64,000 bases of DNA from an uncultured Gemmatimonadaceae bacterium (GCA_963781585.1 CAWAGQ010000013.1:64001-128000); one strand, 5' to 3'; shown: positions 50,588-64,000, counted from the first letter of the stretch. The notes: generated from the sequence alone by a model not told the origin. Translations and numbers: made by a program.

Positions 50588-50594
50588 CCGGTCC

Positions 50595-51527
50595 TCACAC
50601 GGTTGCGTGCGACGTGCGGCGTGCAGCGTCGGGGGCCATTGACACCGGCGGGAGTTCGGGCAGCCGCCGGGTCCAGGCGCGTACCAGGACGCGCAGCAGT
50701 TCCGTGCGGCGGACAACCGCGCGCCGGGAGAACGAGTCGAATTCGATTGCCTCAATCGCCGCGAGGATCCCGGCATAGCCGGAAGCGCAGGCGAGGGCAC
50801 AGCGCTGCGCGTCAGATTGAAGCAGCGCAATTCCAGGTGTGGCGGCTCGATAGAGTTCACGGGCCCGCGCGATCTGGAATCGCATCAGGGCGCGCCACGA
50901 TGCGACCGCGCGGACGGCGGTGCCGTCGAGGACCTGTTCGCGCGACAGGGAGAAACGCCGCAGGTCCTCATCGGGAAGATAGACGCGGCCGCGCGCGGCA
51001 TCCTCCCCGACGTCGCGGAGTATGTTGGTCAACTGCATCGCGAGTCCGAGCGTGCGCGCGTGTCCGAGGGCGCGCTCGCGTTCGTCGGCGCCCCCGGTCG
51101 TGCCGAAGACGGCGGTGCACATCTCGCCCACGCTGCTGGCGACAGCGCGGCAGTAGCGCTCGAGATCGTTCCAGGTCGCGTAATGCGCGTACGAAAGGTC
51201 CCGCTCGACGCCGGCGAGAAGTGCTTCGAACGGCGCCCGCGGAATCTCGAAGCGGGCCATGGCGCGCAGGAGCTCGCGAAGCACCTCGTCCCGCGGCGTC
51301 TGGTGCATCGCCGCATGGAACGCATTCCGGTACTCCCGCAGTCGCGAGAGCGCGGTGGCCGCACCCTGCGGATCCGTCGCCAGGTCGACGATATCGTCTG
51401 CGGTACGGCAGAATGCGTAGACGGCATACACGCCACGCCGTTTGTGGCGTGGAAGCAGCCGGCTCGCCAGCGCAAAGGTCCGTGCGTGGCGGAGCACCAT
51501 CCGCTTGCAGCTGGCGGCATCGTTCAC
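50595..51527 (-). CDS. crtB: Phytoene synthase
   Basis: ARTF..ASRLLP, VYAFCRTADDIVD, YC..VASSVG, QLTNILRDVGED..RGRVYLP; GTG 51527 inferred as start. Confidence 0.93.
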   Translation of the reverse strand: MNDAASCKRMVLRHARTFALASRLLPRHKRRGVYAVYAFCRTADDIVDLATDPQGAATALSRLREYRNAFHAAMHQTPRDEVLRELLRAMARFEIPRAPFEALLAGVERDLSYAHYATWNDLERYCRAVASSVGEMCTAVFGTTGGADERERALGHARTLGLAMQLTNILRDVGEDAARGRVYLPDEDLRRFSLSREQVLDGTAVRAVASWRALMRFQIARARELYRAATPGIALLQSDAQRCALACASGYAGILAAIEAIEFDSFSRRAVVRRTELLRVLVRAWTRRLPELPPVSMAPDAARRTSHATV

Positions 51528-51529
51528 GA

Positions 51530-51577
51530 TGCGGAAGGGGGGACTCGAACCCCCACGGTTGTCCCACGGGATCCTAA
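51530..51577 (-). pseudogene. Orphan 3' half of a tRNA-Leu(TAG); attachment-site remnant
   Basis: Minus strand TTAGGA-TCCCG-variable arm-GGGGG TTCGAGT CCCCC-CTTCCGC-A; no matching 5' half seen in the window. Confidence 0.88.
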
Positions 51578-51596
51578 AAATTATTTCCCCTTCTAG

Positions 51597-51681
51597 TGCG
51601 GGCGGAGGGATTTGAACCCACAAGTCCTTTTGGGACAACGGCTCCTAAGGCCGTCGCGTATGCCAGTTCCGCCACGCCCGC
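51597..51681 (-). tRNA. tRNA-Leu(TAG), complete, 85 nt, CCA not encoded
   Basis: GCGGGCG/CGCCCGC acceptor stem, D-loop with TGG, ACGGC-CTTAGGA-GCCGT anticodon arm, long variable arm, GTGGG-TTCAAAT-CCCTC, discriminator A. Confidence 0.95.
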
Positions 51682-51697
51682 GCTTCGATTTTTCGCC

Positions 51698-51737
51698 TAG
51701 TGTCCCTCTTGGTGTCCCTCTCGTCTAGTGGCACCCT
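51698..51737. repeat. Tandem 12-bp repeats, candidate integrase arm-type sites
   Basis: TAGTGTCCCTCT (51698), TGGTGTCCCTCT (51710), degenerate TAGTGGCACCCT (51726). Confidence 0.6.
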
Positions 51738-51740
51738 GGA

Positions 51741-51749
51741 ATTCTAACA
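51741..51749 (-). promoter_or_regulatory. Extended -10 promoter candidate for the element-borne tRNA
   Basis: Minus strand TG-T-TAGAAT, about 60 nt upstream of the tRNA 5' end. Confidence 0.45.
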
Positions 51750-52414
51750 GGGCGGCGAAGAACAAGGCGACACCTGGGTCTGACACAGCCCCGTGTTTTA
51801 CCCCCATGCGATTTTACCCGAACTTCCGCGAACAACCTTCACGGGAGTTGTTGTGATGGCCAAAAGAGATAAAGAGAAGACTGGGGATTGCGCCGGAGAA
51901 CGGACTACTAAGGGTCACGTCATGTACGGCGTCGGCAAGTCAACGACGAGACATACGTCATCACGCGCCTGACGCCTCGGTACGCCCAGTACATGCTCGC
52001 GCTCACGCTTGATCGTGGCGATGCCATTGTGCTATCGGCAGACAATGAGGGGAACCTGCTACTGAGGGCGGCTTCGACCAGTGGGCGTTCGACTCGTTTC
52101 AGGATGCCTATCTCTGTGCGCGGGACCTCCTCGGCGTCGGTAATCCGGGGTTTGCGGCAACGTCGTGGTCGAGGACTGGAAATCGGAAGGCGAAAACGAA
52201 CGCCGAACCGGCATGGCGGACCTTGATCGTTCGCAAGCTCGAAGCGTTGATCGCCGACACGGAACGGAAGATGAAGGAAGAACAGGCAGCACAAAGCAAT
52301 ATCGCCTAACGTCATACGTCTGCGTGGCTTTGGTGTCCCATTGGGGTAAGATTTGACTATCAGCTCGTTAGGCGCTCGACCCTCAGTCGGACACCAATCA
52401 GCCACGGAGGTCAG

Positions 52415-53860
52415 ATGATCAAGAAACTCTCACCACCACCCACGGAATCGCCGCTCGGTCGTCGAGAGCGCGGGCACGGAAAACTCGTGTGCTGGCCGTA
52501 CCGCACGCCGGCTGACCGTCTCGCGGGCGTCGCCGTTCCATATGGATACGACGCGCGAGGCCGGGCGCTGTGGAAGTTCGTCCTCCGGCTCGACGGTAAG
52601 GCGGTCGTGATCCCAGCCCGTGACTGGCCGCACGCCAACAACGAGTCGCTGAAACGCCTCGGCAAGTGGGATGAGATCGTTGCCGCGAAGGCGGCGAGGA
52701 AAGAAGCGCGCAAGGCTCGGATCACCGGCATAGCCGCCAGTGAGGGATGGAGGTACGCCGACCTGACGCGCGAATGGCTAGCCCACAAGCATCAGCAGGG
52801 CAGGGCACGGCCCTCGACGCTCGCGGGGTACGCGGACGACCTCAAGCGTCACTTCGACCCGTTCTTCAACGTGAAGCTCGACAACCCGGCGCTCGCCGAA
52901 ATCACGCCGGTTGCCATTTCGGCTTTTCGTGCCGCAGTCACGGGGGCAAAGGGTGACCGGCGTCGCGAGAAATGGAACAAGCTGTTTTCACGAGGTTGGG
53001 AGATCTTTGAGTTCGCCCGCGCTCTCGGGAAGATCGACCGCAACCCGTGGATCGCGCCCGTTCATCGCTATCCCGAGCGAACCCGCGACGCGGAGCAGCA
53101 GACCACTGTAATTCCGGCGACGCAGTTGGATCTGATCCTCGACGAGGCCGAGAAGCTCGATGACCCTCGCGTTTCCGTCGCGGTGCTACTCGCTGGGTAC
53201 GGCGGCCTTCGGCTCGACGAGATGACGCACGTTCGCGTCGGCGACCTCACCGTCACCGACACGCTGGTGGATCTGAAGGTAACCAGTGGCTTTCCCTGCT
53301 CGTGCTCATCGTGCGCGAAGGACGGCAACAAGCACCTGACGAAAAATGGGACGACGCGCTACGTGCCGTTCTTGCCTGAGCACGGACAACGGTTCGCTGC
53401 ACATGTCGAACGGCTTCGCACCGCCGGCGTGAGCGGTCCCGAGACGTGGCTGCTCGCCTGCCTCGAACGGCAGCGTCGGTCGAAAGCGAAGCCGGGCAAC
53501 ATGGTCAGGCGCGATACCATCGCGGGAGCGGTCGAGGGACTCGTCGCACGGACGCTCGGTCTCGCGCCGGTCGTCTCGAAAAAGAAGGCCAAAAACAAGT
53601 CCGGACAGATCCGCGATGTGACGCGGACGCGCTACAAGCTGCCGAAGGGAGAGCGCATCCACGTACTACGCCACGCGGCGCGGACTCGGCTCTCGCATCT
53701 CGGCCTGCCGAGCGAGACCATAGACCTCATCATGGGTCACCGGCTCACGGGGATGCGCGGCACGTACACGCATCAGGACCGCGCTGCCGCGTATCGGCTC
53801 CTCTGCGAGAAAGCAGGCAGGAATCTTCCGAGCCCGGTGCAACTCGTCCGGAGCGCCTAA
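52415..53860 (+). CDS. Tyrosine recombinase/integrase
   Basis: GGAGG RBS; GLRLDE (R), TKNG (K), HVLRH, MGH....GTY catalytic residues; adjacent to the att site. Confidence 0.93.
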   Translation: MIKKLSPPPTESPLGRRERGHGKLVCWPYRTPADRLAGVAVPYGYDARGRALWKFVLRLDGKAVVIPARDWPHANNESLKRLGKWDEIVAAKAARKEARKARITGIAASEGWRYADLTREWLAHKHQQGRARPSTLAGYADDLKRHFDPFFNVKLDNPALAEITPVAISAFRAAVTGAKGDRRREKWNKLFSRGWEIFEFARALGKIDRNPWIAPVHRYPERTRDAEQQTTVIPATQLDLILDEAEKLDDPRVSVAVLLAGYGGLRLDEMTHVRVGDLTVTDTLVDLKVTSGFPCSCSSCAKDGNKHLTKNGTTRYVPFLPEHGQRFAAHVERLRTAGVSGPETWLLACLERQRRSKAKPGNMVRRDTIAGAVEGLVARTLGLAPVVSKKKAKNKSGQIRDVTRTRYKLPKGERIHVLRHAARTRLSHLGLPSETIDLIMGHRLTGMRGTYTHQDRAAAYRLLCEKAGRNLPSPVQLVRSA

Positions 53861-53941
53861 CGCCGACTCACCATCAGGTGAATACAAGGGCGTATATTTG
53901 ACTACATCGTAAATGGCTGGGCGCATCGCCAGCCCACCACG

Positions 53942-53984
53942 GAGCCGGGTGACGGGGGAGCCCTCGTTCCCCGGCTCTCTTTAT
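53942..53984 (+). terminator. GC-rich hairpin with T-rich tail downstream of the integrase
   Basis: GAGCCGGG...CCCGGCTC outer stem, inner GACGGGG/CCTCGTT stem, then TCTTTAT. Confidence 0.5.
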
Positions 53985-53998
53985 CACCGGAGTAATGC

Positions 53999-54175
53999 AT
54001 GAAAGCCAAGCGAAGGAAGACCCGCCCGTCAGCCACCCGCGCCGAAAGCATCCGGCGATCCTGGCAAGTTCAGTCGATTCGCCAGCGTCGGTCTGAGGGC
54101 GTACGGCGGTACCACGAGCGCGCCCGCGCCGCCCTCGAAGCGCAGGAACGCGAAGGTGGCATGGCCACGACGTGA
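53999..54175 (+). CDS. Small basic protein, 58 aa (MKAKRRKTRPSATRAESIRRSWQVQSIRQRRSEG...)
   Basis: GGAG RBS 6 nt upstream; below the ORF-track length cutoff. Confidence 0.5.
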   Translation: MKAKRRKTRPSATRAESIRRSWQVQSIRQRRSEGVRRYHERARAALEAQEREGGMATT

Positions 54176-54284
54176 GAGGTTGCTACCGCGCACCACGGTA
54201 GTCTGGTTGGGCACGACGAAAGAGAAGCGCGCCTCGGAGCCGAATCCGAAGGCGCGCACCTGAACCCGACAACTCAAATCAACA

Positions 54285-56183
54285 ATGGAATCGCAGGATA
54301 ATATCTCATCGCCGCTCGTCCAGCGGTTTTGCGACCTGTTTCAAGCTGCGGCGGTATCCGCGACCGCGACCGCTGCCTTCGCTCTCGTCGCGCACGCGGC
54401 GACACCCGTGGAAGCGGCGCACGCATATGCGTCCGCCGGGTTTCCCGTCATCGCGTGGCGAGCTGGCGCGGACGGTGCAAAGGTGCCGCTCATCGACGCG
54501 TGGCCGAGTGCTGCGACGAACGATCCCGGCGCGGCGGTGCGCTGGTGGGACCGCTGGCCCGACGCGGGCGTGGGGGTGGTCCTCGACGCCGGCTGGTGCG
54601 TCGTTGACATCGACGGCGACGATGGCCTACGGACGCTCGTCGAACGCGTTCAGCTTGGCGGACTGCCACTCGGCCCTCGCGTTAAGACTGGACGCGGGTA
54701 CCATCTATGGTATCGCGTTCCGCCCGCGCTCCAGTCAGGGCTTCGGAACGCGGCGAATGGCAAGGTTGAGTTCTACGTCGAGGCCCGCAAGCGATTCTTC
54801 GCCGCGCCGCCGTCGATACACCCGACCGGCGTCGCATACGCGTGGGAACACGCCGAGCTGCCGGTACCTGATCTTCCCGCCGACGCGTTCCGGTGGCTCA
54901 TCGACGTTGACGGCGACCACAGCGCGTCCAAGCCGAACGTGGCCGCGCCGCTTGTCGGTCGCCACGACGACCTATTTCGGGCGCTGTGCTCCATGCGGGC
55001 GCGCGGGTTCGACGAGGACGCAATCGAAGCCGCAGCCCAAAAGCAAAACGAAGCGTTCGCGGATGGTCCGCTCCCGGCCACGGAACTCGCGCGCATCGTG
55101 ACGATGGTCAACCGTTATCCGCTCGGGACGGCGCTGCCGAATCGTCCGACGACGCACGGCCTCACGCTCCGCCGCTACGACGAGATCGAGGAACGCCCGC
55201 TGTCGTGGGGGTGGCGCGGCGTGCTGCCGCGTCGGACGCTCTCGACCGTCGTGGGGGAACCCGGTCTCGGCAAGAGCCTCGTGACTTGCGACCTCGCGGC
55301 GCGATTTACGCGGGGCGAGGCGATGCCGGGCGGGAGCGCGAACGGGTTCGGCAGGCCGGTCAACGTCCTTATGATCGCCATCGAGGACGACCCCGAGGAC
55401 ACGATCAAGCCCCGGCTCGACGCTGCGGGCGCGGACATGATGCGCGTCTTCGACGTTCGCATGAAGGTCGAGACGAGCGACGACATCGGCGCGCTGCCGA
55501 CGTTCCCGGACGACGTGCCGCGCCTGTTCGAGCTAGTCCGTGAGCACGACATCAAGGTCATCATCGTCGACCCGATCACCGCCTGTCTCTCCGACAAGGT
55601 GAACGCCTGGAAGGACGCGGACGTAAGGCGGGCGCTCGCGCCGTTGATCACGCTGGCCCGCGAAGTGGATGCGGTGGCCCTCGGCGTTATGCACGTGAAC
55701 AAGAACGAGACGCAAAGCGCGATCAACCGTGTCGCCAACTCGAAGGCCTTTACGGCAGTCCCGCGCGCCGTGTGGTGGCTCGGCCGCGACCCCGAAGACG
55801 AGGCACATCAAGTGCTTGTTTCGGTCAAGTTCAATGTCGGGCCGAAAGATAAGAGCTACGGCTTCTGCATCACGGGCTTTGACGACAAGGCCCCGCGGGT
55901 GGCGTGGGACGCCGCGCCGGGAACCTTCACGGCGAAGGACCTCCAGCGGCCCCCGCTCGACGAACGGCGAGACGGGAGGTACGAGGCCGCCCTGCTCCTC
56001 TTGCAGCACCTCGGCACGGGGCTCGTCGTCGAAAGCCGCGAGATCAAGGAAGCGGCGAAGGGCAGAGGAGTCGGTGAGAAAACGCTCGAACGGGTCGCGA
56101 AGGAGTTTGGGGTCGTGATCACGCGGACCTCGGAAGTGCCGTCGCGCACCACGTGGCGGTGGCCGTCGCGACTGACCTACTAG
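54285..56183 (+). CDS. Primase-polymerase + PriCT + AAA (RepA-like) helicase replication protein
   Basis: AHAYASAGFPV, KVP, VVDID, TGRGYHLWY, APPSIH; GRHDDLF; Walker A GEPGLGKS, Walker B IIVDP. Confidence 0.9.
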   Translation: MESQDNISSPLVQRFCDLFQAAAVSATATAAFALVAHAATPVEAAHAYASAGFPVIAWRAGADGAKVPLIDAWPSAATNDPGAAVRWWDRWPDAGVGVVLDAGWCVVDIDGDDGLRTLVERVQLGGLPLGPRVKTGRGYHLWYRVPPALQSGLRNAANGKVEFYVEARKRFFAAPPSIHPTGVAYAWEHAELPVPDLPADAFRWLIDVDGDHSASKPNVAAPLVGRHDDLFRALCSMRARGFDEDAIEAAAQKQNEAFADGPLPATELARIVTMVNRYPLGTALPNRPTTHGLTLRRYDEIEERPLSWGWRGVLPRRTLSTVVGEPGLGKSLVTCDLAARFTRGEAMPGGSANGFGRPVNVLMIAIEDDPEDTIKPRLDAAGADMMRVFDVRMKVETSDDIGALPTFPDDVPRLFELVREHDIKVIIVDPITACLSDKVNAWKDADVRRALAPLITLAREVDAVALGVMHVNKNETQSAINRVANSKAFTAVPRAVWWLGRDPEDEAHQVLVSVKFNVGPKDKSYGFCITGFDDKAPRVAWDAAPGTFTAKDLQRPPLDERRDGRYEAALLLLQHLGTGLVVESREIKEAAKGRGVGEKTLERVAKEFGVVITRTSEVPSRTTWRWPSRLTY

Positions 56184-56479
56184 CACGCGGTGTCGCGTGT
56201 AACCAATGATACAAATCCACGGACCGAAGGTTATAAAAAGTAGGAGTGTCTCAACCAGGAGGAAGAATCGCGTAACTCGTTGGCACCTAACGCCGCTTCC
56301 AGTCGCGACACTTCGCGTGAAAAGGGCAGTCGCGACACGCGTCATTCACGGTGGGGCGGAGCCTCCGCTTCCAGTCGCGACACGGCGGGTCGAATACAGG
56401 GAGGCCTGGCCTACAGCCTCGCTGAATGCCCCGGAAAATGCCTGCCGCGACCACGGCGGGACACCAGCGCGGGACACCA
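56165..56479. repeat. Putative replication origin: iterons flanking an AT-rich patch
   Basis: CAGTCGCGACAC x3 (two within CCGCTTCCAGTCGCGACAC at 56293 and 56365, one at 56327); inverted partial copies at 56165 and 56190; AT-rich 56200-56245; GCGGGACACCA x2 (56456, 56469). Confidence 0.75.
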
Positions 56480-56709
56480 CCGCCCGGCCGATTGTAACAA
56501 GCTCACATAAGTGCTGTCGTGGCAAAGCTTTATGCACAAAGACTATCATATCAGGTACGCTAGTTCGTCTTCGCGACAAGCCCCTAGAACACGCTCAGAC
56601 CGCCTCGCGTGCCGCCGACCTATTTCTCCCTGTCCTCACGCACGGATTGCCCTTACCGTGGCATCTGGTGCCACCACCAACCGGTTCGCTGGACCTAACG
56701 AGTTCCTCA

Positions 56710-57312
56710 ATGAAGAACCCAAAGGAAGTGAAAGCGCCGCCCTTCCCAGACCTGCTCGCTGCGCTCGACCAGTACGATCCGCGGCTATCTGCGGAGGTGC
56801 GCGCCCTCCTCGCAGAGCTAAGAAGGGTCATCGCGGAGACCGGAGCGGCAACGGGAGGAGAAGGGCTGTCCGAAACCGCAGTCACAACGATCAAAGACAT
56901 CGCGACCGCCCACGTCGGCTCCGCGATGTACAACCAGCTCTCGTTGCAGTACTCGGCGGGTCTCCCGCTGAATAAGGGCGGCGAGAAGCGGGGCGTGATT
57001 CTGAGAGCGATGGAGAAGGCAAACCCTTGGTTCAGCGCGGCACGGTTCAAGGGGATGGATGGTCGCTTGCTTAAGAAGCCAAGCGGTCAGGCTAATCTGC
57101 GGGCGCGCGGCCGTGCGGCAGCCAAGGCGCGCGAGCTTCCGCGCGTGGACATTGACGAGCTGACTGAGCGTGAGGGCGACGCCATTTACGCGGAACTAAA
57201 GGCGGAGGACCAAGCGCGGCTCGCCGCCGGGAAGCGACCGCGGAAGTCCGTCGAAATCCAAAGGCAAGCGGAGGTGCGCGCCGCCCGTCGCCTAAAGGAG
57301 CGCGGCCAGTGA
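56710..57312 (+). CDS. Hypothetical protein, 200 aa
   Basis: ATG 56710 within the long ORF; its upstream extension only reads through the iterons. Confidence 0.65.
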   Translation: MKNPKEVKAPPFPDLLAALDQYDPRLSAEVRALLAELRRVIAETGAATGGEGLSETAVTTIKDIATAHVGSAMYNQLSLQYSAGLPLNKGGEKRGVILRAMEKANPWFSAARFKGMDGRLLKKPSGQANLRARGRAAAKARELPRVDIDELTEREGDAIYAELKAEDQARLAAGKRPRKSVEIQRQAEVRAARRLKERGQ

Positions 57313-57465
57313 CAGCGCTGTATCGGACTCGTTAGGGCCATCACGGTACCTTGAAAAACGTATCGAGGCCTCACGCCTCGACGCGCTACGGACGACGGTC
57401 GGCCAGCGGAACTGAAAATCTCCGCCGCTGGTCGGCCGAAGCCCCGGACCTCAAGGAATACCAAG

Positions 57466-58068
57466 ATGGCAACAACCACCAAGCCAGAAACGCTCGACCA
57501 GAGGCGCGCTCGCCTACAGGGCGAGTGCAATCACCTCACGTGTGACGCGCGGGATGCGCTCGAGGAGAAGCTGATTGCGGCAGATACAGCGGAGAAGGCG
57601 GCCGCTACGGCCGACGACGGACCCGCATGGCAAGCCGCTCGACGAGCCAAGGCCGACCTGATTCAGGAGCGTGAGGAACTCGTCGCGAGCATCGAGGCGA
57701 AGCAGCTCGCGCTCAAAGAGTGTGAGTGGCAGATCGCCAAGCGAGACCGGGACGCCGGAATCCGCGAGGTGCAGGCGCACGCCAAGACTGCGGCCGACGT
57801 CGCGCCGGAGATCGTCGAAGCTGTCGAGACCCTCGCCGACGCCCTGCAGCGCTTCGCAGGCCAGTGCGCCGGGGTCTATCGCGCTGGCGCGGCGGTGGAC
57901 CACGACAACGAGCGCGGCCTTCGCGAGCTGACGTCGAAGGAACGCGTGTGGCGCGACGTGGAATATCACCTGCGCGCGGCGCTCGGACTTTCCACCGGCG
58001 CGTTCATTCACGGCACGGCGCTCGATCAGGCAAGCGAGCTAACAACGTACGCCGAGACGCTCCGATGA
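57466..58068 (+). CDS. Hypothetical coiled-coil protein, 200 aa
   Basis: AAGGA RBS; Ala/Glu/Arg-rich helical composition. Confidence 0.75.
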   Translation: MATTTKPETLDQRRARLQGECNHLTCDARDALEEKLIAADTAEKAAATADDGPAWQAARRAKADLIQEREELVASIEAKQLALKECEWQIAKRDRDAGIREVQAHAKTAADVAPEIVEAVETLADALQRFAGQCAGVYRAGAAVDHDNERGLRELTSKERVWRDVEYHLRAALGLSTGAFIHGTALDQASELTTYAETLR

Positions 58069-58301
58069 CGCCCGACCGCCGGGCGGAGCTTCGCACCGTC
58101 GCGCGTGCCTATGCCTTCGACGTCGCCTTCGGTGGCGCGCCGCTCGTCGGGGCGATGGCGCGCACCTGGGGCCACGCCGAATCACGCGAGGAATCCCGTC
58201 GCGTCCTCGCCGACTTCAATACTGCCTTCCGCCACTTCGCCCGTCGCGCCGGTCGCGCGGCGATCCGCTCCACACTTCGTGAGGTCCGCCGTGAGCGATA
58301 A
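58065..58301 (+). CDS. Hypothetical protein, 78 aa
   Basis: ATGA overlap with the upstream stop (MTPDRRAELR...). Confidence 0.6.
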   Translation: MTPDRRAELRTVARAYAFDVAFGGAPLVGAMARTWGHAESREESRRVLADFNTAFRHFARRAGRAAIRSTLREVRRER

Positions 58302-58647
58302 CACGTTCGTTCTACCGGCGAAAGCCGCACATGCGTTCCGACCGGGCGAGATGATTCCGGAGGACGGCTTCACCCGCTTCGTGCCCTACTTCCCTCGTCT
58401 GACCGGCGAGTCCGACGCCGCCTACGCGGCTCGGCTAGAAGCTGTCGGGTTAGCCGTAGTCATTACCTCCGAGGATGCCCGCGACATCGCTACGTACCGA
58501 GGACTCGTAACCGAGGCCGTAACGCGGAAGCTGCCTATCGCGATGCTGACCTCTCCGATTTCCGACGACCCGGGCGACGTGGACCTCGCGACTAGAGAAG
58601 CGGCGAAGGCGGCCGCCCTCGAAGCTGCGCACAGAGCCAAACCCTGA
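58291..58647 (+). CDS. Hypothetical protein, 118 aa
   Basis: GAGGT RBS, GTG start (SDNTFVLP...). Confidence 0.6.
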   Translation: MSDNTFVLPAKAAHAFRPGEMIPEDGFTRFVPYFPRLTGESDAAYAARLEAVGLAVVITSEDARDIATYRGLVTEAVTRKLPIAMLTSPISDDPGDVDLATREAAKAAALEAAHRAKP

Positions 58648-58661
58648 ACCGATACACTCCC

Positions 58662-58841
58662 ATGGCAAACAATTCGAAGCTTGACCCGTCCCCCACCTAT
58701 AGCCCGTCGCATCACGACATCGATGAGTGGCACCGCGCTCGTCAGGCTCCCGGCAACGCGCCCGCGAACTCGCCCGCCGCGCCGGGAAACGCGCCGCGTG
58801 AGAACGTCGAACGTCCCGAGAAGTCGAAGGACGGCCGATGA
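58662..58841 (+). CDS. Small Pro/Asn-rich protein, 59 aa (MANNSKLDPSPTYSPSHHDIDEWH...)
   Basis: Fills the gap; its stop overlaps the next ATG (ATGA). Confidence 0.5.
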   Translation: MANNSKLDPSPTYSPSHHDIDEWHRARQAPGNAPANSPAAPGNAPRENVERPEKSKDGR

Positions 58842-59206
58842 CCGCGACGGTCGGGCTGACGGTCGGCCTTACCGACGAAGACGAGCGCCTGATCGAGCGG
58901 CTGATCGACGCCGCGCTCGTCAGGCGCTTCGGATCGAGTAACGGCGCTCCCTCCGAGTCTGACCGGCTCGCTTCGTGGCGCGAGCGGCTTTGGACGTGCG
59001 CGCCGGATACGCGCCTGTTTGCCGACGAAGTCGCGGCGGCTCTCGGCGTGTCGAAGCGGACCGTCTACCGCTGGGTAGACGTGAAGCACCTTCCCTGCCG
59101 ACGCCGCGACGACGGGCTCGTGTTCCTCGCGGGTGACGTCCGAAGGTGGGCCGACGAACAGGAAACGGTGGTCAACTCGGCCGCGCGGCTTCGGAAGGTC
59201 GGGTGA
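58838..59206 (+). CDS. Excisionase/MerR-like HTH DNA-binding protein
   Basis: ADEVAAALGVSKRTVYRWV..LPC.R....VF..DVRRW. Confidence 0.85.
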   Translation: MTATVGLTVGLTDEDERLIERLIDAALVRRFGSSNGAPSESDRLASWRERLWTCAPDTRLFADEVAAALGVSKRTVYRWVDVKHLPCRRRDDGLVFLAGDVRRWADEQETVVNSAARLRKVG

Positions 59207-59210
59207 CGCC

Positions 59211-59474
59211 GTGACCTTCCGCGCGGCAAAGCGCCACGCGTCCCGCGAGGGACTTCGAATCCCCCGGCCTCCGAAGACGCTCGACGACGCCGTTAGGCTC
59301 GCGTCGTGGGTGTCGATCCAGGTCGCGCGCGGGAATATCAGCCATCACGACGCCCGCGCCATCACGGACGCGCTCAAGGAATTTCGCGAGCTGCTCGGCG
59401 TTCGCGACGCGAGGGTCGAGGCCGAGTCCCTGCGTCGCCAGATCGCTGAGCTAAAGGCGCGAGCCGGTGAATAG
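59211..59474 (+). CDS. Small helical protein, candidate terminase small subunit
   Basis: 87 aa, helical with C-terminal coiled coil; overlaps the terL start; function inferred from position only. Confidence 0.5.
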   Translation: MTFRAAKRHASREGLRIPRPPKTLDDAVRLASWVSIQVARGNISHHDARAITDALKEFRELLGVRDARVEAESLRRQIAELKARAGE

Positions 59475-60993
59475 GCGAGAGCTAGAGCGACTTCGCCGCG
59501 AACTCGGCGAGCTGGAAGAGCGGCTCTACGGCACCGCGCCGTGGCCCGACCTCTCCCGGTACGCCGGGCGCGCCCGCGCCTTCGCGGAAGACGTTTGCCA
59601 CGCGGTGCTGCTCTCCTGGCAGGGCGAGGCGTTTGACGCGCTCGACGCGAACCGGCTCCTTGCCGTCGCGTCGTGCAACGGCGCGGGCAAGACCGCGTGG
59701 GCGCCGCTCGCGCTCCTGTACGTGGCGGCGGTGCTCGGTGCGAAGGCCGTCTATCTGACCGCCAACGAGCGGACGGCGCGCACGACGATGGTGCGCGAGC
59801 TAAAGCGGTGGGTCCGCGCCGCGAAGCTGCCGTGCTCGGTCTACAACCACGGCGTCGAAACGCCTAACGGCGGCGTGATCCTCGTCCTGTCGCCCGCCGA
59901 GATGGAAGCGGCCGCGGGCCAGCACGACCCCGAGATGGTGGTGATCGTGGACGAGGCCTCGGCGCTCGAAGACGACATCTTCGAGGCGCTGATGGGCAAC
60001 GCCGTGTCGGAGCGCAACCGGCTGGTTCTGCTAGGCAACCCGCTCCGCGCCTCCGGACCGTTCGCGACTGCGCTCCGCGCCGCACAGGGCTGGTGGAAGC
60101 GCTTCGTGACCGCCGCCGAGGTGATGGCCGACGCGAACTATGCGAACATCGCGGGCCTCATCAGCAAGCCGGGCGTGGACGCGCTCCGTCAAACGTTCGG
60201 TGAGGAGTCGATGGCGTTCGCGAGCCGCGTATACGCGCGGCTTCCGGTCGCCGACGCGGACGCGCTCTATCCGGAGGCGCTGTTAGAAGCGGCCGTCGAG
60301 CGCTGGCGAGCCGGCACGCTTCGGAGGAAGCACGCGAACGCGCGTCTCAAGGCGGGGCTCGACCTGGCCGCGTCCGAGGACGGCGACGCGTCGGCGCTGG
60401 CGGTGGCCTTCGGCGGCGCGCACGTCGAGGCCATCCACACCATGCGGAGCCGCGACACGATGAAGGTCGCGGGCTGGGCGGTCGCCACACTCGGCGCGTA
60501 CAACGCGCGGCGTCGCCCTAGCTTCGCGATGGCCGAAGCCGTCCGGGACCTCGGCCTAACGAGCCCCGGCGATCCCCTCATCCAGCTTCGCGACGTGAGC
60601 ATCTATGGCGACGAGATCGCGTGGGGAAAGGGCTGCATCGACCGGCTCAAGGAGGCGGGCTTTGCGGCTTACGGCATCAATGTTTCACGACGACCGGCCG
60701 AGGCCGACAAGGCGGCGATCTACGCGAACGAGCGGGCGCGCATCGCCTACGCGTTCCGCGAAAGGCTGGTGCAGGGGACCGTGGCGATCCCACCAGACGA
60801 CGAGCTGCTGGAAGAACTACGCGCCTATAAGGCCTTCGCGAACAGCGCCGGGAAGCAGCAGTGCGTCAGCAAGGGCGAGCTTCGGCAGGTGCTCGGCCGA
60901 AGCCCCGACAAGATGGACGCGGTGCTGCTGGCGACGTGCGCGGACGCGTCGCCGACGTTCGACGCCGACGAGAGTGGCTTGATCGCGTTCTAG
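59467..60993 (+). CDS. Terminase large subunit
   Basis: Walker A SCNGAGKT, Walker B VVIVDEA, LLGNP coupling motif, nuclease GLDLA..D, DEIAWG, SPDKMDA. Confidence 0.85.
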   Translation: MNRRELERLRRELGELEERLYGTAPWPDLSRYAGRARAFAEDVCHAVLLSWQGEAFDALDANRLLAVASCNGAGKTAWAPLALLYVAAVLGAKAVYLTANERTARTTMVRELKRWVRAAKLPCSVYNHGVETPNGGVILVLSPAEMEAAAGQHDPEMVVIVDEASALEDDIFEALMGNAVSERNRLVLLGNPLRASGPFATALRAAQGWWKRFVTAAEVMADANYANIAGLISKPGVDALRQTFGEESMAFASRVYARLPVADADALYPEALLEAAVERWRAGTLRRKHANARLKAGLDLAASEDGDASALAVAFGGAHVEAIHTMRSRDTMKVAGWAVATLGAYNARRRPSFAMAEAVRDLGLTSPGDPLIQLRDVSIYGDEIAWGKGCIDRLKEAGFAAYGINVSRRPAEADKAAIYANERARIAYAFRERLVQGTVAIPPDDELLEELRAYKAFANSAGKQQCVSKGELRQVLGRSPDKMDAVLLATCADASPTFDADESGLIAF

Positions 60994-61514
60994 GTTGCGT
61001 CCAGCAACGCGTCGATGATGGTCATGCTCTCGCTGAGAGAATCGTAGCTCGGCCGATCAACCCAACCGAACCTCTCCTCGCCGGAGACAAACGCGGCACC
61101 GAGGAGGCTGCTAACCGGTATGACGCCAGGATAGCAGACCTCCACTGGTACGATCATTGGGAGGTGCTGGCCACAGCGCCGAGTTGCCTCGCGCGACGAC
61201 ACCGGAGCAGTCGGAAGCAAACCGCGATCAACGCAAAGTAGAACGGTCAACCTGTGGAGGAACACAAACCGCTCCCACTGACGATGCGTGTCGGGGTGGA
61301 ATACCTCTTCGGGTCGTGCTGCGGCGAAGTCAAAGAGCGAGATAGCGCCCAACTGCCGACAGCAGGAGTCGCGCGACTGCGGAAAGGTGTCCCGCATCGA
61401 CCCGTCCCAAGGTCTAATCTCGCCGCACTTTACGATCTCTGCGAAGTGACGAACGCTCGTCGCGTGTATAGGTCCCTTCAGAAGAATTCGATACAGCGGG
61501 TGTTCTTTCTCCAC
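60990..61514 (-). CDS. Hypothetical protein, possibly ADP-ribosyltransferase-like fold
   Basis: HATS..F.EI..CGEIRP ... ISLFD ... EVCYPGVIP pattern; GTG start 10 nt after the DUF4238 stop. Confidence 0.5.
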   Translation of the reverse strand: MEKEHPLYRILLKGPIHATSVRHFAEIVKCGEIRPWDGSMRDTFPQSRDSCCRQLGAISLFDFAAARPEEVFHPDTHRQWERFVFLHRLTVLLCVDRGLLPTAPVSSREATRRCGQHLPMIVPVEVCYPGVIPVSSLLGAAFVSGEERFGWVDRPSYDSLSESMTIIDALLDAT

Positions 61515-61524
61515 GGCGATGCCA

Positions 61525-62493
61525 TCAACAGTCGCGTTCCGCGTTTGGTGTCTGCGCGTCGGAGTCGGGCGCGCGGATGGGCTCGGGCTCGAACCACGCC
61601 GCCCTCGTTTCATTCTGGCAGACCACTATCTCGTCGTCGGCGTGGACGAGCGTGCGTTGATTGAGGATGTCGACAACCATTGGCGTCGTCTTCTGAAAGC
61701 CGCTAAGACCGGCGCGGTTGTAGACGAGGGTCTGACGCGGAGAGATTGGAAGCGTGACCTCCACGGTCGGATACATCAGACCTGGCGCCCGATGCAGGAA
61801 TGGACGCTTGTACGCCTCGGGGTCGAACACGACGCAGGGCGCGTCCGATGCGATGAATCCAAGGCGATCATCCGTGGAGAGAATCGCGAGATCCATTCCC
61901 ACGAGTAGCGACGCCATTGTCTCGATCGCCACAGCCATGCTGTTTTGAAGCGGCTCGCTCGCAAGTCGTCGTACGTCCGCATGACTCATGGTCTTAGCGC
62001 GATCCGATGGCGGCATCATCAGGCGAGCTATCTGCTCGCGCTCCTCGGGCGATCGCCTCATCATGTCGTCGTGAACTCGATCCAACGTTTCGAGAAGGCG
62101 TCCCCACTCCTTCCTCTGATGGTCGCGCTGTCGACGCGACCGCGAGTGCATCGCCGCAACGAAGACCGCCAGCATGAACTGGTCGAGCGGCTCAAGCTCG
62201 ACGCGCGCCTCAAACTTCTCGCGTCGCAGCGTCGAGAAGCGATCCTCCAATTCGCTGAGCCCACGTTCAAGCCGCAGGTCCCGAGCGCCTGACCGGCCGT
62301 GAATCGTGTACATGTCGGTCTCCGCGAAGATATTGTGCGGCGCCTTCCGACGGCCGGCACCGCCATTCCACGGGAACACCCACACGTACGGCTCCTGGCC
62401 TTCGGGCGTCGTGGGGTCGCACCATGCCGAGAGGTACGAACGGGGGACCCAGTGTTGTTTCTTGTGCTTCATGGAGCGAACCGAAATGGCCAC
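61525..62493 (-). CDS. DUF4238-family protein
   Basis: QHWVPRSYLSAW N-terminal motif, LE..LSELE, FIASDAP, LPISP; start 62493 or 62472. Confidence 0.82.
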   Translation of the reverse strand: MAISVRSMKHKKQHWVPRSYLSAWCDPTTPEGQEPYVWVFPWNGGAGRRKAPHNIFAETDMYTIHGRSGARDLRLERGLSELEDRFSTLRREKFEARVELEPLDQFMLAVFVAAMHSRSRRQRDHQRKEWGRLLETLDRVHDDMMRRSPEEREQIARLMMPPSDRAKTMSHADVRRLASEPLQNSMAVAIETMASLLVGMDLAILSTDDRLGFIASDAPCVVFDPEAYKRPFLHRAPGLMYPTVEVTLPISPRQTLVYNRAGLSGFQKTTPMVVDILNQRTLVHADDEIVVCQNETRAAWFEPEPIRAPDSDAQTPNAERDC

Positions 62494-62569
62494 TCGCGAC
62501 GTGCGACCGACGCGTCGCCTACCGTCGACTGATCGAGCGGCCGATAAGCCTTCTGACTGGCCCGATAAG

Positions 62570-62734
62570 CTACGGGACTAACCTGCCAGAGAACGCGGCG
62601 CTGATTACCTGTGAGATTGCGGCGTTCACCGCCTCGCGAGTTCCGCTCTTGAGTGCGGCACGTATGCGCTGTCCAAGCGGAGTCTGATCCTTCAGCGCAT
62701 CCGGCACGGAATTGAGAACGGTTAACCCCTTTAG
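62570..62734 (-). pseudogene. 3' end of a gene interrupted by the IS5
   Basis: Open frame LKGLTVLNSVPDALKDQTPLGQRIRAALKSGTREAVNAAISQVISAAFSGRLVP* running from the IS boundary. Confidence 0.6.
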
Positions 62735-64000
62735 CAGGGTGCTGAAAAAGGGTGGAAAACTTGCTGTTGCAGAACGGGAGAGCGATGCCTAACGTGGCGC
62801 GACCCCAATGGAGAGTCCCCGGTATGCGCGGCGAGAGCCCCCAGCAGACGATTCTGTTCAGCTATCGCTCGGTCGAGGACCGGATCCCGGTCGACCACCC
62901 CTTGCGCGTGATCCGCCAGCTCGTGGAACCCGTGCTGCGCGAGCTGTCCCCCCAATTTGACGTGCTGTACGCCAAGATCGGGCGGCCGTCGATTCCGCCG
63001 GAGCACTTGCTGCGGGCGCTCCTCCTCCAGGTGCTGTACACGCTCCGGAGCGAACGGCGCCTCATGGAGGAACTCGACTACAATCTCCTCTATCGCTGGT
63101 TCGTGGGACTGAATCCCGACGAGCCCGTGTGGGTGCCGACCGTGTTCACGAAGAACCGGGAGCGGCTCCTGGAGGGGGACATCGCGCACGCGTTCTTCGC
63201 GGCGGTCCAGCGGCAGGCCGAGGTGCGGCAGTTGCTCTCGCACGAGCACTTCACGGTGGATGGCACGCTCCTCGAAGCTTGGGCGAGCCAGAAGAGCTTT
63301 CGCCCGATCACCGAGGGGGGCGACGGACCCCAGGGGCCCACCCCACCGGCGGAGGCGGATGCCGCGAGTCGGCCGAAGAATCCGACGGTGAATTTCCGGG
63401 GGGAGAAGCGGTCGAATGCGACGCATCGGTCGAGGACGGATCCCGACGCGCGGCTGGCCCGGAAGAGCCGAAACACCGCCGCGATTCTCGGCTACCTGGC
63501 GAGTGTGATCATCGATAATCGCCACGGCTTGGTGGTGGCGACCGATGTGCGCGCGCCGGGCGGGCATGCGGAGGAGGAGGCCGGGCTCGAGATGCTGACC
63601 ACGCTGGAAAGCCACCGGCCGCACCGGACCCTCGGGGCCGACAAGGGCTACGATACCGAATCGTTCGTCACCGGGGCGCGGGACGCGGGGGTGACGCCCC
63701 ATGTCAGTCAGAACATTCACCCCCGCCGGCTTCGCAGCGCCATTGACGCGCGGACGACCCGCCACTCGGGCTACGAGATCAGTCAGCGCAAACGGAAACT
63801 GGTGGAGCAAGGCTTTGGCTGGGACAAAACCGTGGGCTTGCTGCGCAAACTCCGGCATCGCGGTCGCGAGAAGGTCGGCTGGATCTTCACGTTCACCAAT
63901 GCCACCTACAATCTGGTGCGGATCCGCACCCTGATCCGGGCCGGCGTATGCCCCTAACGTCGACCAGCGCGCGGAATCGCCGCCGCGATCGCGCAAAGGG
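62735..64000 (+). mobile_element. IS5-family insertion sequence (right end beyond window)
   Basis: Left end CAGGGTGCTGAAAAA preceded by TTAG; intact transposase. Confidence 0.85.
62824..63957 (+). CDS. IS5-family DDE transposase
   Basis: DHPLR, GRPSIPPE, YNLLYRWFVGL, VDGT, TDPDARL, ADKGYD, RKLVEQGFGW.K. Confidence 0.95.
   Translation: MRGESPQQTILFSYRSVEDRIPVDHPLRVIRQLVEPVLRELSPQFDVLYAKIGRPSIPPEHLLRALLLQVLYTLRSERRLMEELDYNLLYRWFVGLNPDEPVWVPTVFTKNRERLLEGDIAHAFFAAVQRQAEVRQLLSHEHFTVDGTLLEAWASQKSFRPITEGGDGPQGPTPPAEADAASRPKNPTVNFRGEKRSNATHRSRTDPDARLARKSRNTAAILGYLASVIIDNRHGLVVATDVRAPGGHAEEEAGLEMLTTLESHRPHRTLGADKGYDTESFVTGARDAGVTPHVSQNIHPRRLRSAIDARTTRHSGYEISQRKRKLVEQGFGWDKTVGLLRKLRHRGREKVGWIFTFTNATYNLVRIRTLIRAGVCP

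What the first reader, a model, noticed from the sequence alone, without database searches (positions are those of the whole stretch)
51578..60993. Satellite-like element with its own terminase large subunit but no recognisable capsid or portal
Seen: a ~9.4 kb co-oriented module of integrase, small basic ORF, primase/helicase, iteron origin, five unknown ORFs, an HTH protein, a small helical ORF and TerL with intact ATPase and nuclease motifs. Convergent cargo genes follow immediately, where a portal gene would normally lie. Established: PICIs typically encode only TerS, P4-like satellites encode no terminase, and capsid-forming PICIs encode TerS/TerL together with portal and capsid. Inference: this may be an undescribed satellite type that supplies a whole packaging motor and loads helper procapsids. 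The HTH gene sitting beside the terminase rather than beside the integrase is also atypical.
Basis: partly seen in the sequence, partly recalled or inferred. Interest (0 to 1): 0.85.

Follow-up and report, generated by a model that had tools for sequence, protein, structure and literature searches.

The report
Capsid-less mobile island with own terminase
A complete 16-kb mobile island, inserted in a leucine tRNA gene of a Gemmatimonadota-type bacterium, carries integration, replication and DNA-packaging-motor genes but no virus shell or portal genes, so it most likely spreads in the capsids of a helper phage, which no experiment has yet shown.

Summary
The described module is real. It is the left 9.4 kb of a precisely bounded 16.0-kb element (window 51578-67590) that runs 3.6 kb past the window end. 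The element sits in the anticodon loop of the host tRNA-Leu(TAG). Joining the two flanks in silico restores an intact tRNA, and the element carries its own complete tRNA-Leu(TAG). The 508-aa protein is a genuine large terminase by PDB profile and by AF2/Foldseek, with ATPase and nuclease motifs intact. No portal or capsid gene was found anywhere in the element or in the genome. This TerL falls in a well-supported clade of 28 sequences, all from Gemmatimonadota and none from the viral contigs sampled. Eight relatives are bounded by tRNA repeats at 5.6-18.5 kb. Of 18 clade loci scanned, 0 had portal or capsid hits, while a control prophage of the same phylum and 5 of 8 viral contigs did. The only gene conserved beside TerL is a small upstream protein (16 of 22 loci), a candidate small terminase of no known family. 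The best reading is a helper-dependent satellite that brings its own terminase. I found no published description. Packaging, helper and excision remain untested.

The parts
51530..51571 (-). 3' half of the split host tRNA-Leu(TAG) gene (acceptor strand CTTCCGC)
   Evidence: Joined in a script to the 5' half, which lies beyond the window at 67597-67629, it gives an intact 81-nt tRNA-Leu(TAG) by ARAGORN.
51572..51577 (.). Left copy of the 6-bp att core (TCCTAA on +, which is the anticodon-loop TTAGGA). The right copy is at 67591-67596, beyond the window (L001 7591-7596).
51578..64000 (+). In-window part of the mobile element. The whole element is 51578-67590, 16,013 bp, GC 0.634 against 0.67 for the genome.
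51596..51681 (-). Element-borne complete tRNA-Leu(TAG) (acceptor GCGGGCG/CGCCCGC). It is the only tRNA-Leu(TAG) that ARAGORN found in the genome.
52415..53860 (+). Tyrosine integrase, 481 aa
   Evidence: PF00589 3.9e-9; phrog_1 3e-25.
53999..54175 (+). Small basic ORF (58 aa, pI 11.9), function unknown
   Evidence: No family hit.
54285..56183 (+). Primase-helicase (Prim-Pol, PriCT_1, AAA_25), 632 aa
   Evidence: PF09250 3.6e-28; PF13481 8.9e-31; phrog_10729 3.9e-39.
56165..56483 (.). Iteron-like repeat cluster, the candidate replication origin
   Evidence: Three direct copies and one inverted copy of AGTCGCGAC, plus a tandem 13-mer.
56710..57312 (+). Unknown ORF, about 200 aa (shortened from the 368-aa frame)
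   Evidence: No family hit, and the Atlas gave no relative.
57466..58068 (+). Unknown ORF, 200 aa. The strand cannot be settled from base composition.
   Evidence: No family hit.
58105..58647 (+). Unknown ORF, up to 180 aa, start uncertain
   Evidence: No family hit.
58662..58841 (+). Unknown ORF, 59 aa
   Evidence: No family hit.
58838..59206 (+). HTH_17 (excisionase / AlpA-MerR-like) DNA-binding protein, 122 aa
   Evidence: PF12728 3.7e-9; phrog_66 5.8e-8; TIGR01764 6.6e-6.
59133..59474 (+). Small helical protein overlapping the TerL start; candidate small terminase subunit. The source's own gene call is 87 aa.
   Evidence: Found just upstream of TerL in 16 of 22 clade loci. It matches no known family, and the fold searches were uninformative.
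59467..60993 (+). Large terminase subunit (TerL), 508 aa, with ATPase and nuclease domains
60990..61613 (-). Unknown ORF, 207 aa, convergent with TerL (cargo)
61525..62493 (-). DUF4238 protein (cargo)
   Evidence: PF14022 1.6e-31.
62752..63957 (+). IS5-family transposase inserted in the cargo region
   Evidence: PF05598 2.1e-22; NF033581 5.4e-75. A second copy lies on contig C11.

Best explanation
This is a complete 16.0-kb integrative mobile element of a Gemmatimonadota-specific family. It most likely behaves as a helper-dependent phage satellite that brings its own terminase.

Shown:
- It is inserted by a tyrosine integrase into the anticodon loop of the host tRNA-Leu(TAG), which it splits.
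- It carries a full replacement tRNA-Leu(TAG).
- It encodes a primase-helicase next to an iteron-like origin, an HTH_17 protein, a small conserved protein directly upstream of TerL, and a bona fide TerL.
- Low-GC cargo follows: DUF4238, an IS5 element and a Phd-like antitoxin.
- It has no portal or capsid gene.

Inferred:
- After excision the element replicates from its own origin.
- The small protein, alone or with the HTH protein, acts as the small terminase that recognises the element's DNA.
- TerL cuts that DNA and pumps it into procapsids made by an unidentified helper phage, docking on the helper's portal.
- This bypasses the helper's own terminase.
For: Boundaries. Joining the left flank (up to 51577) to the right flank (from 67597) gives an intact 81-nt tRNA-Leu(TAG) with a perfect cloverleaf. 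GC returns to the host level at the right end. Housekeeping genes follow: an aminotransferase, HtrA and DnaK.

TerL identity. An alignment profile hits Sf6 gp2 large terminase at 2.4e-21, and the nine best PDB matches are all large terminases. The AF2 model has pLDDT 82.8. The top Foldseek hits are Sf6 gp2 (2.9e-18), T4 gp17 (1e-11) and HK97 TerL (3.1e-11). The catalytic residues are invariant.

No capsid or portal.
- No such hit for any ORF of the element.
- No whole-genome hit to PF05065, PF04860, phrog_1216 or phrog_64.

Family evidence.
- In a tree of 95 TerLs (38 of them viral), this one falls in a clade of 28 with SH-aLRT 99. All 28 come from Gemmatimonadota genomes or metagenome proteins, and none is viral.
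- Eight relatives are bounded by partial-tRNA repeats at 5.6, 5.9, 8.8, 8.8, 11.4, 12.7, 13.7 and 18.5 kb.
- Of 18 clade loci scanned, 0 had portal or major-capsid hits.
- Positive controls: a prophage of the same family as this genome (L204) gave portal 6e-111, scaffold 3e-47 and major head 2e-54. Five of 8 viral contigs gave a portal directly downstream of a related TerL.
- All-against-all clustering of 22 clade loci found only these shared families: TerL (22), the small upstream protein (16), HTH_17 types (5 + 4), integrase (4), AAA_25 (4) and PrimPol (3). No conserved downstream family appeared.
- L201 repeats the order int, primase, HTH, TerL, with no portal.
Against: - No helper phage is identified, and none of the five structural families searched was found in this 93.5%-complete genome.
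- No excised circle, virion read or expression data could be obtained; no sequencing run was listed.
- The small upstream protein has no detectable similarity to known small terminases. Its best BFVD match has E 0.06 and its best VIA Z is 7.2, generic for helical proteins. In this element it also lacks the N-terminal CCCH zinc-ribbon-like segment that 7 aligned relatives have.
- Neither the TerL clade nor the small protein was found in the IMG/VR contigs sampled. So nothing ties the family to virus particles.
- An IS5 insertion and a very short att core (6 bp) leave room for an immobile copy.
- Some relatives carry 1000-1200-aa proteins of unknown function, or single neck or tape-measure-like hits. 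The family is therefore not uniformly free of virion genes.
- The phrog_2 match alone is unspecific: it rings in 11 of 14 control genomes.
Confidence: 0.5

Rival explanations
1. The terminase has been taken over for a role other than packaging the element itself. Examples: an anti-phage device that competes for or sabotages an invading phage's procapsids or DNA, or a nuclease that resolves the element's replication concatemers. The element would then move by some other route.
For: - In several relatives TerL sits among DNA-metabolism genes, not head genes: RusA/PDDEXK and SSB in L016, RuvC and SSB in L031, an exonuclease in L022.
- The element carries cargo of the kind often seen on defence islands: DUF4238 and a Phd-like antitoxin.
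- No link to virus particles was found.
- In one subclade the Walker B Asp is replaced by Thr (5 of 16 aligned sequences).
Against: - TerL keeps both the ATPase and the nuclease catalytic residues and a full-length terminase fold.
- It is tightly coupled to a small upstream protein in the position of a small terminase (16 of 22 loci). That is the arrangement of a working packaging enzyme.
- No PADLOC defence model matched at a meaningful level: the best E for TerL was 6.4e-4 over 39 residues.
Confidence: 0.17
2. This is a decayed remnant of a prophage or of a capsid-forming PICI that lost its head genes. The TerL is a leftover.
For: - An IS5 element and low-GC cargo sit exactly where head genes would follow TerL.
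- The small upstream protein is shorter here than in 7 relatives.
- Two relatives (L197, L003) have no detectable integrase inside their repeats.
Against: - The att sites are precise and rebuild the tRNA.
- Eight independently bounded relatives at different tRNAs share the same reduced content, and no portal or capsid family is conserved in 22 loci.
- The TerL clade holds no sampled viral contig from which remnants could derive.
- TerL is intact and 82% identical over 97% of its length to a metagenome protein.
- The short form of the small protein is conserved at 66-83% identity in 5 other proteins. One of them is on a contig of the same length (7,315 bp) and source as the TerL relative's, which is probably the same contig.
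Confidence: 0.12
3. The element is self-sufficient and encodes capsid and portal proteins too divergent to recognise.
For: About ten ORFs of the element have no family hit. Phages of this phylum are poorly sampled.
Against: - Apart from the integrase, primase, TerL, DUF4238 and the transposase, the largest ORF is 269 aa, so nothing is portal-sized. That ORF has very low Atlas recognition (877).
- None of the unknown ORFs is conserved among related elements.
- PHROGs readily finds portal, scaffold and capsid in a prophage of the same bacterial family.
- 16 kb, of which 6.6 kb is cargo, is too small for a head-tail virus.
Confidence: 0.04

Closest known systems
Classical PICIs (SaPI type and Gram-negative type), as modelled in SatelliteFinder (de Sousa et al. 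2023, PMC10085698; passages read)
   Same: A small (about 10-16 kb) site-specifically integrated island. It has an integrase, an HTH regulator or excisionase-type protein, its own primase-replicase with an origin, a packaging-specificity gene at the distal end, then accessory cargo. It has no structural or lysis genes.
   Different: PICIs carry only a small terminase (or Rpp) and use the helper's TerL; a recent survey states that classical PICIs lack TerL (PMC13612085). This element encodes a full TerL. Its putative small subunit belongs to no known TerS family. No capsid-morphogenesis gene was found. The HTH gene lies next to the terminase rather than next to the integrase.
Capsid-forming PICIs (cfPICI; PMC10085698, and bioRxiv 10.1101/2022.09.08.507074, seen in a search listing only)
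   Same: A satellite-sized island with integrase, primase and its own TerS plus TerL.
   Different: cfPICIs are defined by also encoding major capsid, portal, protease and head-tail adaptor/connector, and they steal only tails. None of these was found here or in 18 clade loci.
PICI-like tycheposons and VEIMEs (marine satellites; bioRxiv 10.1101/2020.12.28.424599 and PMC9618062; passages read)
   Same: tRNA-targeting tyrosine-recombinase elements flanked by partial tRNAs, with a primase/helicase and a minimal packaging gene set. Some carry cargo.
   Different: In the passages read, those elements carry terS or an MCP (tycheposons), or TerS homologues and 'motor-like ATPases' (VEIMEs), not a TerL with a nuclease domain. 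The host phylum is different. No sequence relationship was tested.
P22/Sf6-type phage large terminases (PDB 4IFE and 4IDH)
   Same: Best sequence-profile and structural match. Two-domain ATPase plus RNase H-like nuclease with conserved acidic residues.
   Different: Only 15-16% identity over the Foldseek alignment to full-length Sf6 gp2 and 20% to its nuclease domain. In those phages a portal gene follows TerL, as it did in 5 of 8 viral contigs checked. Here it does not.

Membership tests
Large terminase subunit (TerL) family | N-terminal ASCE ATPase with Walker A and Walker B | tested here: met
   GAGKT at 72-76 and D162/E163. The ATPase domain aligns structurally with those of T4 gp17 and P74-26.
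Large terminase subunit (TerL) family | C-terminal RNase H-like nuclease with conserved acidic residues | tested here: met
   The profile matches the Sf6 gp2 nuclease domain at 2.4e-21. D299, D382, D481 and D484 are invariant in 16 sequences. Foldseek TMt is 0.65-0.67 to the nuclease domains 5C10 and 8DKR.
Large terminase subunit (TerL) family | Packages DNA into procapsids through a portal | not testable with these tools
   No portal in the element or genome.
Classical PICI | Integrase, primase-replicase and a regulator of the AlpA/MerR/Stl type | tested here: met
   PF00589, PF09250 + PF13481 and PF12728 (HTH_17; a sub-threshold MerR hit at 1e-4). The regulator's role is inferred, and its position differs from that in PICIs.
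Classical PICI | Small terminase only; no TerL or other structural genes | tested here: not met
   A full TerL is present.
Classical PICI | Induced and packaged by a helper phage | not testable with these tools
   No sequencing runs were listed, and no helper is identified.
Capsid-forming PICI | Major capsid, portal, protease and head-tail adaptor/connector genes in the island | tested here: not met
   No such hit among all ORFs of the bounded element. There is no ORF of portal size.
Capsid-forming PICI | Own TerL | tested here: met
Small terminase subunit (for ORF 59133-59474) | Homology or fold similarity to known TerS families | tested here: inconclusive
   No Pfam, PHROG or NCBIfam hit. 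The model is three helices, and the structural matches are generic. The assignment rests only on position and linkage to TerL.
Complete prophage (tailed phage) | Portal, major capsid, tail and lysis genes between the att sites | tested here: not met
   The element is 16,013 bp between att sites, and none of these genes was found.
tRNA-targeting tyrosine-integrase element | att sites within a tRNA gene, with crossover in the anticodon loop | tested here: met
   for this element. In 8 relatives the repeats are the 5' or 3' portion of a tRNA gene. That they end in the anticodon loop is read from the tRNA positions the repeats cover (for example 1-39, 33-75) and was not computed. That anticodon-loop sites form a known class of integrase targets is recalled, not checked in a paper here.

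The most novel reading that the evidence does not exclude
A family of 6-19-kb capsid-less phage satellites, so far seen only in Gemmatimonadota, carries a complete terminase: a TerL lineage absent from the viral contigs sampled, plus a new zinc-ribbon/coiled-coil small subunit. With it they take over helper procapsids without using any helper packaging protein. That would be a fifth packaging strategy beside P4, PICI, cfPICI and PLE. This copy also splits the host's only tRNA-Leu(TAG) gene and supplies the working copy itself.
Probability: 0.45. Interest if true: 0.85.

Novelty: new variant of a known kind. Interest (0 to 1): 0.75.

Why it matters
In the papers read here, satellites are sorted by what they steal. 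PICIs and P4 take capsids and the helper's terminase motor. cfPICIs take only tails. A satellite that brings the whole terminase but no shell would fill the gap between them. It would also raise a testable question: how can a foreign TerL dock on a helper's portal? Such elements are missed by satellite-finding models, which expect TerL only together with capsid genes, and probably by virus-finding tools too. Soil phyla such as Gemmatimonadota may therefore hold many uncounted phage parasites that move cargo and defence genes. Finally, an element that splits a single-copy tRNA gene and replaces it with its own full copy is an unusual way to integrate without harming the host.

Tried and rejected
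- My first reading of a 41-nt similarity between the intact tRNA and 67589-67630 as the att repeat was wrong. It is homology between the element's tRNA and the host's split tRNA, and the acceptor stems do not match.
- The metagenome scan with the close TerL group confirmed no relative, so the contexts of the 44-82% relatives P0003-P0006 could not be seen.
- No sequencing run was listed for the element, so excision and coverage could not be examined.
- The complex prediction of TerL with the small protein was not available.
- The Atlas search gave no relative for the 368-aa frame or the 269-aa ORF (scores 0.77 and 0.81, low recognition).
- For the small protein, Foldseek against BFVD had a best E of 0.06, and VIA against 48,161 chains had a best Z of 7.2. 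Both are generic helical matches.
- The IMG/VR scan with the small-protein alignment failed first for lack of a conserved stretch. With a 4-sequence alignment it found no relative.
- tblastx of related loci against the element was too noisy at this GC content to use.
- PADLOC gave no meaningful hit for 17 proteins.
- A 1196-aa protein of relative L031 had no PDB or Pfam match.
- Literature searches found no description of a satellite with TerL but without capsid and portal. The candidate precedent PhiAH14b has no terminase. Supplements were not read. Subscription-only papers are outside the library.


Full report
**Setting.** The window is G000:C13:64001-128000 of a 5.7-Mb, 67% GC draft genome with 17 contigs, 93.5% complete and 7.2% contaminated. 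Relatives of the key protein come almost only from Gemmatimonadota. I take that as the host phylum.

On the + strand lie the following:
- a tyrosine integrase (52415-53860);
- a 58-aa basic ORF (pI 11.9);
- a Prim-Pol/PriCT_1/AAA_25 primase-helicase (54285-56183);
- about four ORFs without any family hit;
- an HTH_17 protein (58838-59206);
- a small helical ORF (59133-59474) whose end overlaps the next start;
- a 508-aa terminase-like protein (59467-60993).

A cluster of repeats starts inside the last 20 nt of the primase gene and runs on past its stop. AGTCGCGAC occurs three times direct and once inverted within 220 bp, and these are 4 of the 5 copies in the whole window. A tandem 13-mer follows. 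This fits an iteron origin. The repeats overlap the first third of the 368-aa frame. Its translation there looks non-coding, so the gene probably starts at 56710 and encodes 200 aa.

**The 508-aa protein is a large terminase.**
- Pfam gave only sub-threshold P-loop hits.
- PHROGs gave phrog_5902 (9e-19) and phrog_2, TerL (5e-17). phrog_2 also rings in 11 of 14 control genomes, so I did not rely on it.
- A profile of 16 homologues hits the Sf6 gp2 large terminase at 2.4e-21. The nine best PDB matches are all large terminases.
- The AF2 model (pLDDT 82.8) matches full-length Sf6 gp2 (2.9e-18), T4 gp17 (1e-11), HK97 TerL (3.1e-11) and D6E TerL.
- GAGKT (72-76), Walker B D162/E163 and the nuclease acids D299, D382, D481 and D484 are present. 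The four nuclease acids are invariant in the alignment.

**Boundaries of the element.** The contig continues past the window, so I read on.
- GC is 0.55-0.63 from 61.0 kb to 67.5 kb and then returns to host level. An aminotransferase, HtrA and DnaK follow.
- At 67597-67629 lies the 5' half of a tRNA-Leu(TAG), with acceptor strand GCGGAAG. Directly beside the intact tRNA, at 51530-51571, lies a 3' half with the matching strand CTTCCGC.
- Both halves end at the same 6-bp core, TCCTAA, which is the anticodon loop.
- Joining the two flanks in a script gives an 81-nt tRNA-Leu(TAG) with a perfect cloverleaf by ARAGORN.
- The element is therefore 51578-67590, 16,013 bp. It split the host gene in the anticodon loop.
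- The intact tRNA-Leu(TAG) at 51596-51681 has a different acceptor stem (GCGGGCG/CGCCCGC). It lies inside the element, 18 nt from the core. It is the only tRNA-Leu(TAG) that ARAGORN finds in the genome.
- So the element disrupts a single-copy tRNA gene and supplies a full replacement. Precise excision would restore the host gene.

**Content of the whole element.** Beyond TerL come:
- a 207-aa ORF and a DUF4238 protein, both convergent with TerL;
- an IS5-family transposase on the + strand, with a second copy on contig C11;
- a 269-aa ORF with no relatives;
- a weak Phd-like antitoxin (PF02604, 5.5e-6, below the Pfam cut-off);
- several short unknown ORFs.

No ORF hit a portal, capsid, protease, scaffold, connector, tail or lysis family. 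Apart from the integrase, primase, TerL, DUF4238 and the transposase, nothing exceeds 269 aa, so there is no candidate of portal size. The whole genome gave no hit to PF05065, PF04860, phrog_1216 or phrog_64. phrog_1328 gave only a weak hit (2.6e-5) to its C-terminal part, in a 1317-aa ORF. No second TerL and no paralogue of the element's genes exist in the genome.

**Is it a remnant? Evidence from relatives.**
- The protein collection holds only 27 homologues at E up to 1e-3. The closest are 82%, 50%, 46% and 44% identical.
- A scan of one genome per species confirmed 198 relatives; the best 80 were kept, and most of the higher-scoring ones are from Gemmatimonadota MAGs.
- IMG/VR gave 236 relatives, with the best 80 kept. 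Their near-full-length matches are at most 29% identical.
- In a sample of the phylum, 25 of 401 genomes have a homologue. That count includes this genome and one unpublished genome on which nothing else rests.

I built a tree of 95 near-full-length TerLs, 38 of them viral. Left out were 23 duplicates, partial or interrupted hits, and the two loci of the unpublished genome. This protein falls in a clade of 28 with SH-aLRT 99. The clade is made only of Gemmatimonadota genome loci and metagenome proteins, with no viral contig in it. The neighbouring clades mix viral and cellular rows.

**Context of that clade.** I scanned 18 clade loci, this one included, with Pfam and/or PHROGs.
- None has a portal or major-capsid hit.
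- Ten have an integrase within reach, and nine a primase or AAA_25 helicase.
- Isolated virion-like hits do occur: a Neck1 protein in L200 (5e-24), weak tape-measure-like hits in L051 and L022, and a ClpP-like protease in L197.

The controls worked.
- L204, from a genome of the same family as this one, is a normal prophage: TerS, TerL, portal (phrog_1216, 6e-111), scaffold (3e-47) and major head (2e-54). Its TerL groups with viral contigs in the tree.
- In 5 of 8 viral contigs with related TerLs, a portal was detected directly downstream.

As a test that needs no annotation, I clustered all ORFs of 22 clade loci against each other. The only families shared by three or more loci were TerL (22), the small upstream protein (16), two HTH_17 groups (5 and 4), integrase (4), AAA_25 (4) and PrimPol (3), plus two clusters of antisense frames inside TerL. 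No conserved gene follows TerL. That is not what a set of prophages would give.

**Relatives are bounded too.** Of 18 distinct clade loci examined, 8 have a tRNA gene and a partial copy of it bracketing TerL:

| Locus | Size | tRNA | Note |
|---|---|---|---|
| L198 | 12.7 kb | tRNA-Val | |
| L031 | 13.7 kb | tRNA-Pro | 5' half repeated |
| L203 | 8.8 kb | tRNA-Arg | 5' half repeated |
| L021 | 8.8 kb | tRNA-Ser | |
| L022 | 18.5 kb | tRNA-His | |
| L016 | 11.4 kb | tRNA-Cys | |
| L003 | 5.6 kb | tRNA-Lys | 5' half repeated |
| L197 | 5.9 kb | tRNA-Leu(TAG) | imperfect repeat |

- Eight loci had no tRNA in the stretch held, and two had a tRNA without a repeat.
- By the tRNA positions they cover, the repeats appear to end in the anticodon loop. 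This was read from the positions, not computed.
- L197 has the closest TerL with visible genomic context (39% identity). It sits at the same chromosomal site as this element, next to HtrA and DnaK.
- L201 repeats the gene order of this element: integrase, primase, small ORFs, HTH, TerL, then unrelated genes.

**The small upstream protein.**
- It has no Pfam, PHROG or NCBIfam hit, and its 34 homologues are all unnamed.
- Seven aligned relatives have an N-terminal Cys-Cys-Cys-His segment that looks like a zinc ribbon, followed by a conserved helical part. The protein here keeps only the helical part.
- The short form is conserved at 66-83% identity in five other proteins. One is on a contig of the same length (7,315 bp) and source as the 82% TerL relative's, probably the same contig.
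- The AF2 model is three helices (pLDDT 75), and fold searches were uninformative.
- Its reading as a small terminase rests on position, start-stop overlap with TerL and linkage. It is an inference.

**Mechanism.** The following are shown:
- a bounded integrative element;
- an intact integrase;
- a primase-helicase beside iteron-like repeats;
- a bona fide TerL coupled to a conserved small protein;
- no shell genes;
- a family of such elements.

The following are inferred:
- excision and replication of the element;
- recognition of the element's DNA by the small protein and/or the HTH protein;
- packaging by its own TerL into procapsids of a helper phage.

The best PDB relatives are of the Sf6 type. 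From memory these are headful packagers, so a 16-kb element might be packed as concatemers, but this is speculation. I put the satellite reading at about 0.5. The main rivals are a terminase used for another purpose such as interference, a decayed remnant, and unrecognised capsid genes.

**Comparison with what is known.**
- Passages in PMC10085698 and PMC13612085 state that PICIs carry a small terminase but no TerL, and that cfPICIs carry TerL together with capsid, portal, protease and connectors.
- In the passages read, tycheposons carry terS or an MCP, and VEIMEs carry TerS homologues and motor-like ATPases.
- The Streptomyces satellites encode full head modules. EPIPs encode a small terminase and head genes. 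PhiAH14b has no terminase.
- Seven literature searches found no satellite with TerL but without capsid and portal. The library lacks most subscription journals, and I read no supplements.
- Earlier notes of this scan report similar capsid-less, terminase-bearing islands in other phyla. These are unchecked AI notes and count only as leads.

**Verdict.** I rate it a new variant of a known kind: a phage satellite with a new division of labour. It is of high interest, and it lacks any experimental or read-level evidence of mobilisation.

Noticed in passing
window 51530-51681 and L001 7591-7629 (= window 67591-67629): The element splits the host's single tRNA-Leu(TAG) gene in the anticodon loop. 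Instead of rebuilding it from a partial copy, it carries a complete tRNA-Leu(TAG) with a different acceptor stem, 18 nt from the att core. Relatives L031, L203 and L003 duplicate the 5' half of their target tRNA. Others duplicate the 3' part.
   Followed up: yes
window 51698-51718, 52331-52396, 56458-56479, 61385; L207 16675 (= window 67475): The motif TGGTGTCCC (up to 1 mismatch) occurs 8 times in the 18-kb stretch, against 3.3 expected; 3 of 200 shuffles reach 8. There are two tandem copies at the left end, an inverted pair just upstream of the integrase start, two tandem copies in the origin region, and one copy 115 nt from the right end. These may be binding sites of the integrase arm domain or of a regulator.
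   Followed up: partly
window 62752-63957: The real gene here is an IS5-family transposase on the + strand (GC by codon position 0.67/0.47/0.85). The longer minus-strand ORF 62731-64080 is not the gene. A second copy of the IS lies on contig C11, where tblastn aligns it in three adjacent pieces, which may mean frameshifts.
   Followed up: partly
alignment A1 (TerL homologues P0009, P0010, P0012, P0013, P0014): In one subclade of the Gemmatimonadota TerLs the Walker B aspartate is replaced by threonine (LTEAQ instead of VDEAS). The following glutamate and the nuclease acids are kept. The effect on ATPase activity is unknown.
   Followed up: no
L031 12718-16308, L198 2359-5577, L200 14534-17566: Three related elements each carry a 1000-1200-aa protein with no Pfam or PHROG hit. 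For the L031 protein, a PDB sequence search also found nothing. They did not cluster with each other at E 1e-8.
   Followed up: partly
L019, L025, L206 (= G302), and rows L181, L183, L187, L188 of the tree: A second, separate Gemmatimonadota TerL clade of 6 rows also lacks detectable portal or capsid neighbours in the loci scanned. In L025 it sits 2.6 kb from a homologue of this element's primase (31% identity).
   Followed up: partly
L012 and L014: Two clade members lie beside NikA-like (relaxosome accessory) proteins. L012 also lies among mercury and heavy-metal resistance genes, which hints that some members ride on larger mobilisable islands.
   Followed up: no
window 47988-50860: Carotenoid genes (a phytoene desaturase-like amine oxidase and a Caroten_synth protein) lie upstream of the insertion site.
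   Followed up: no
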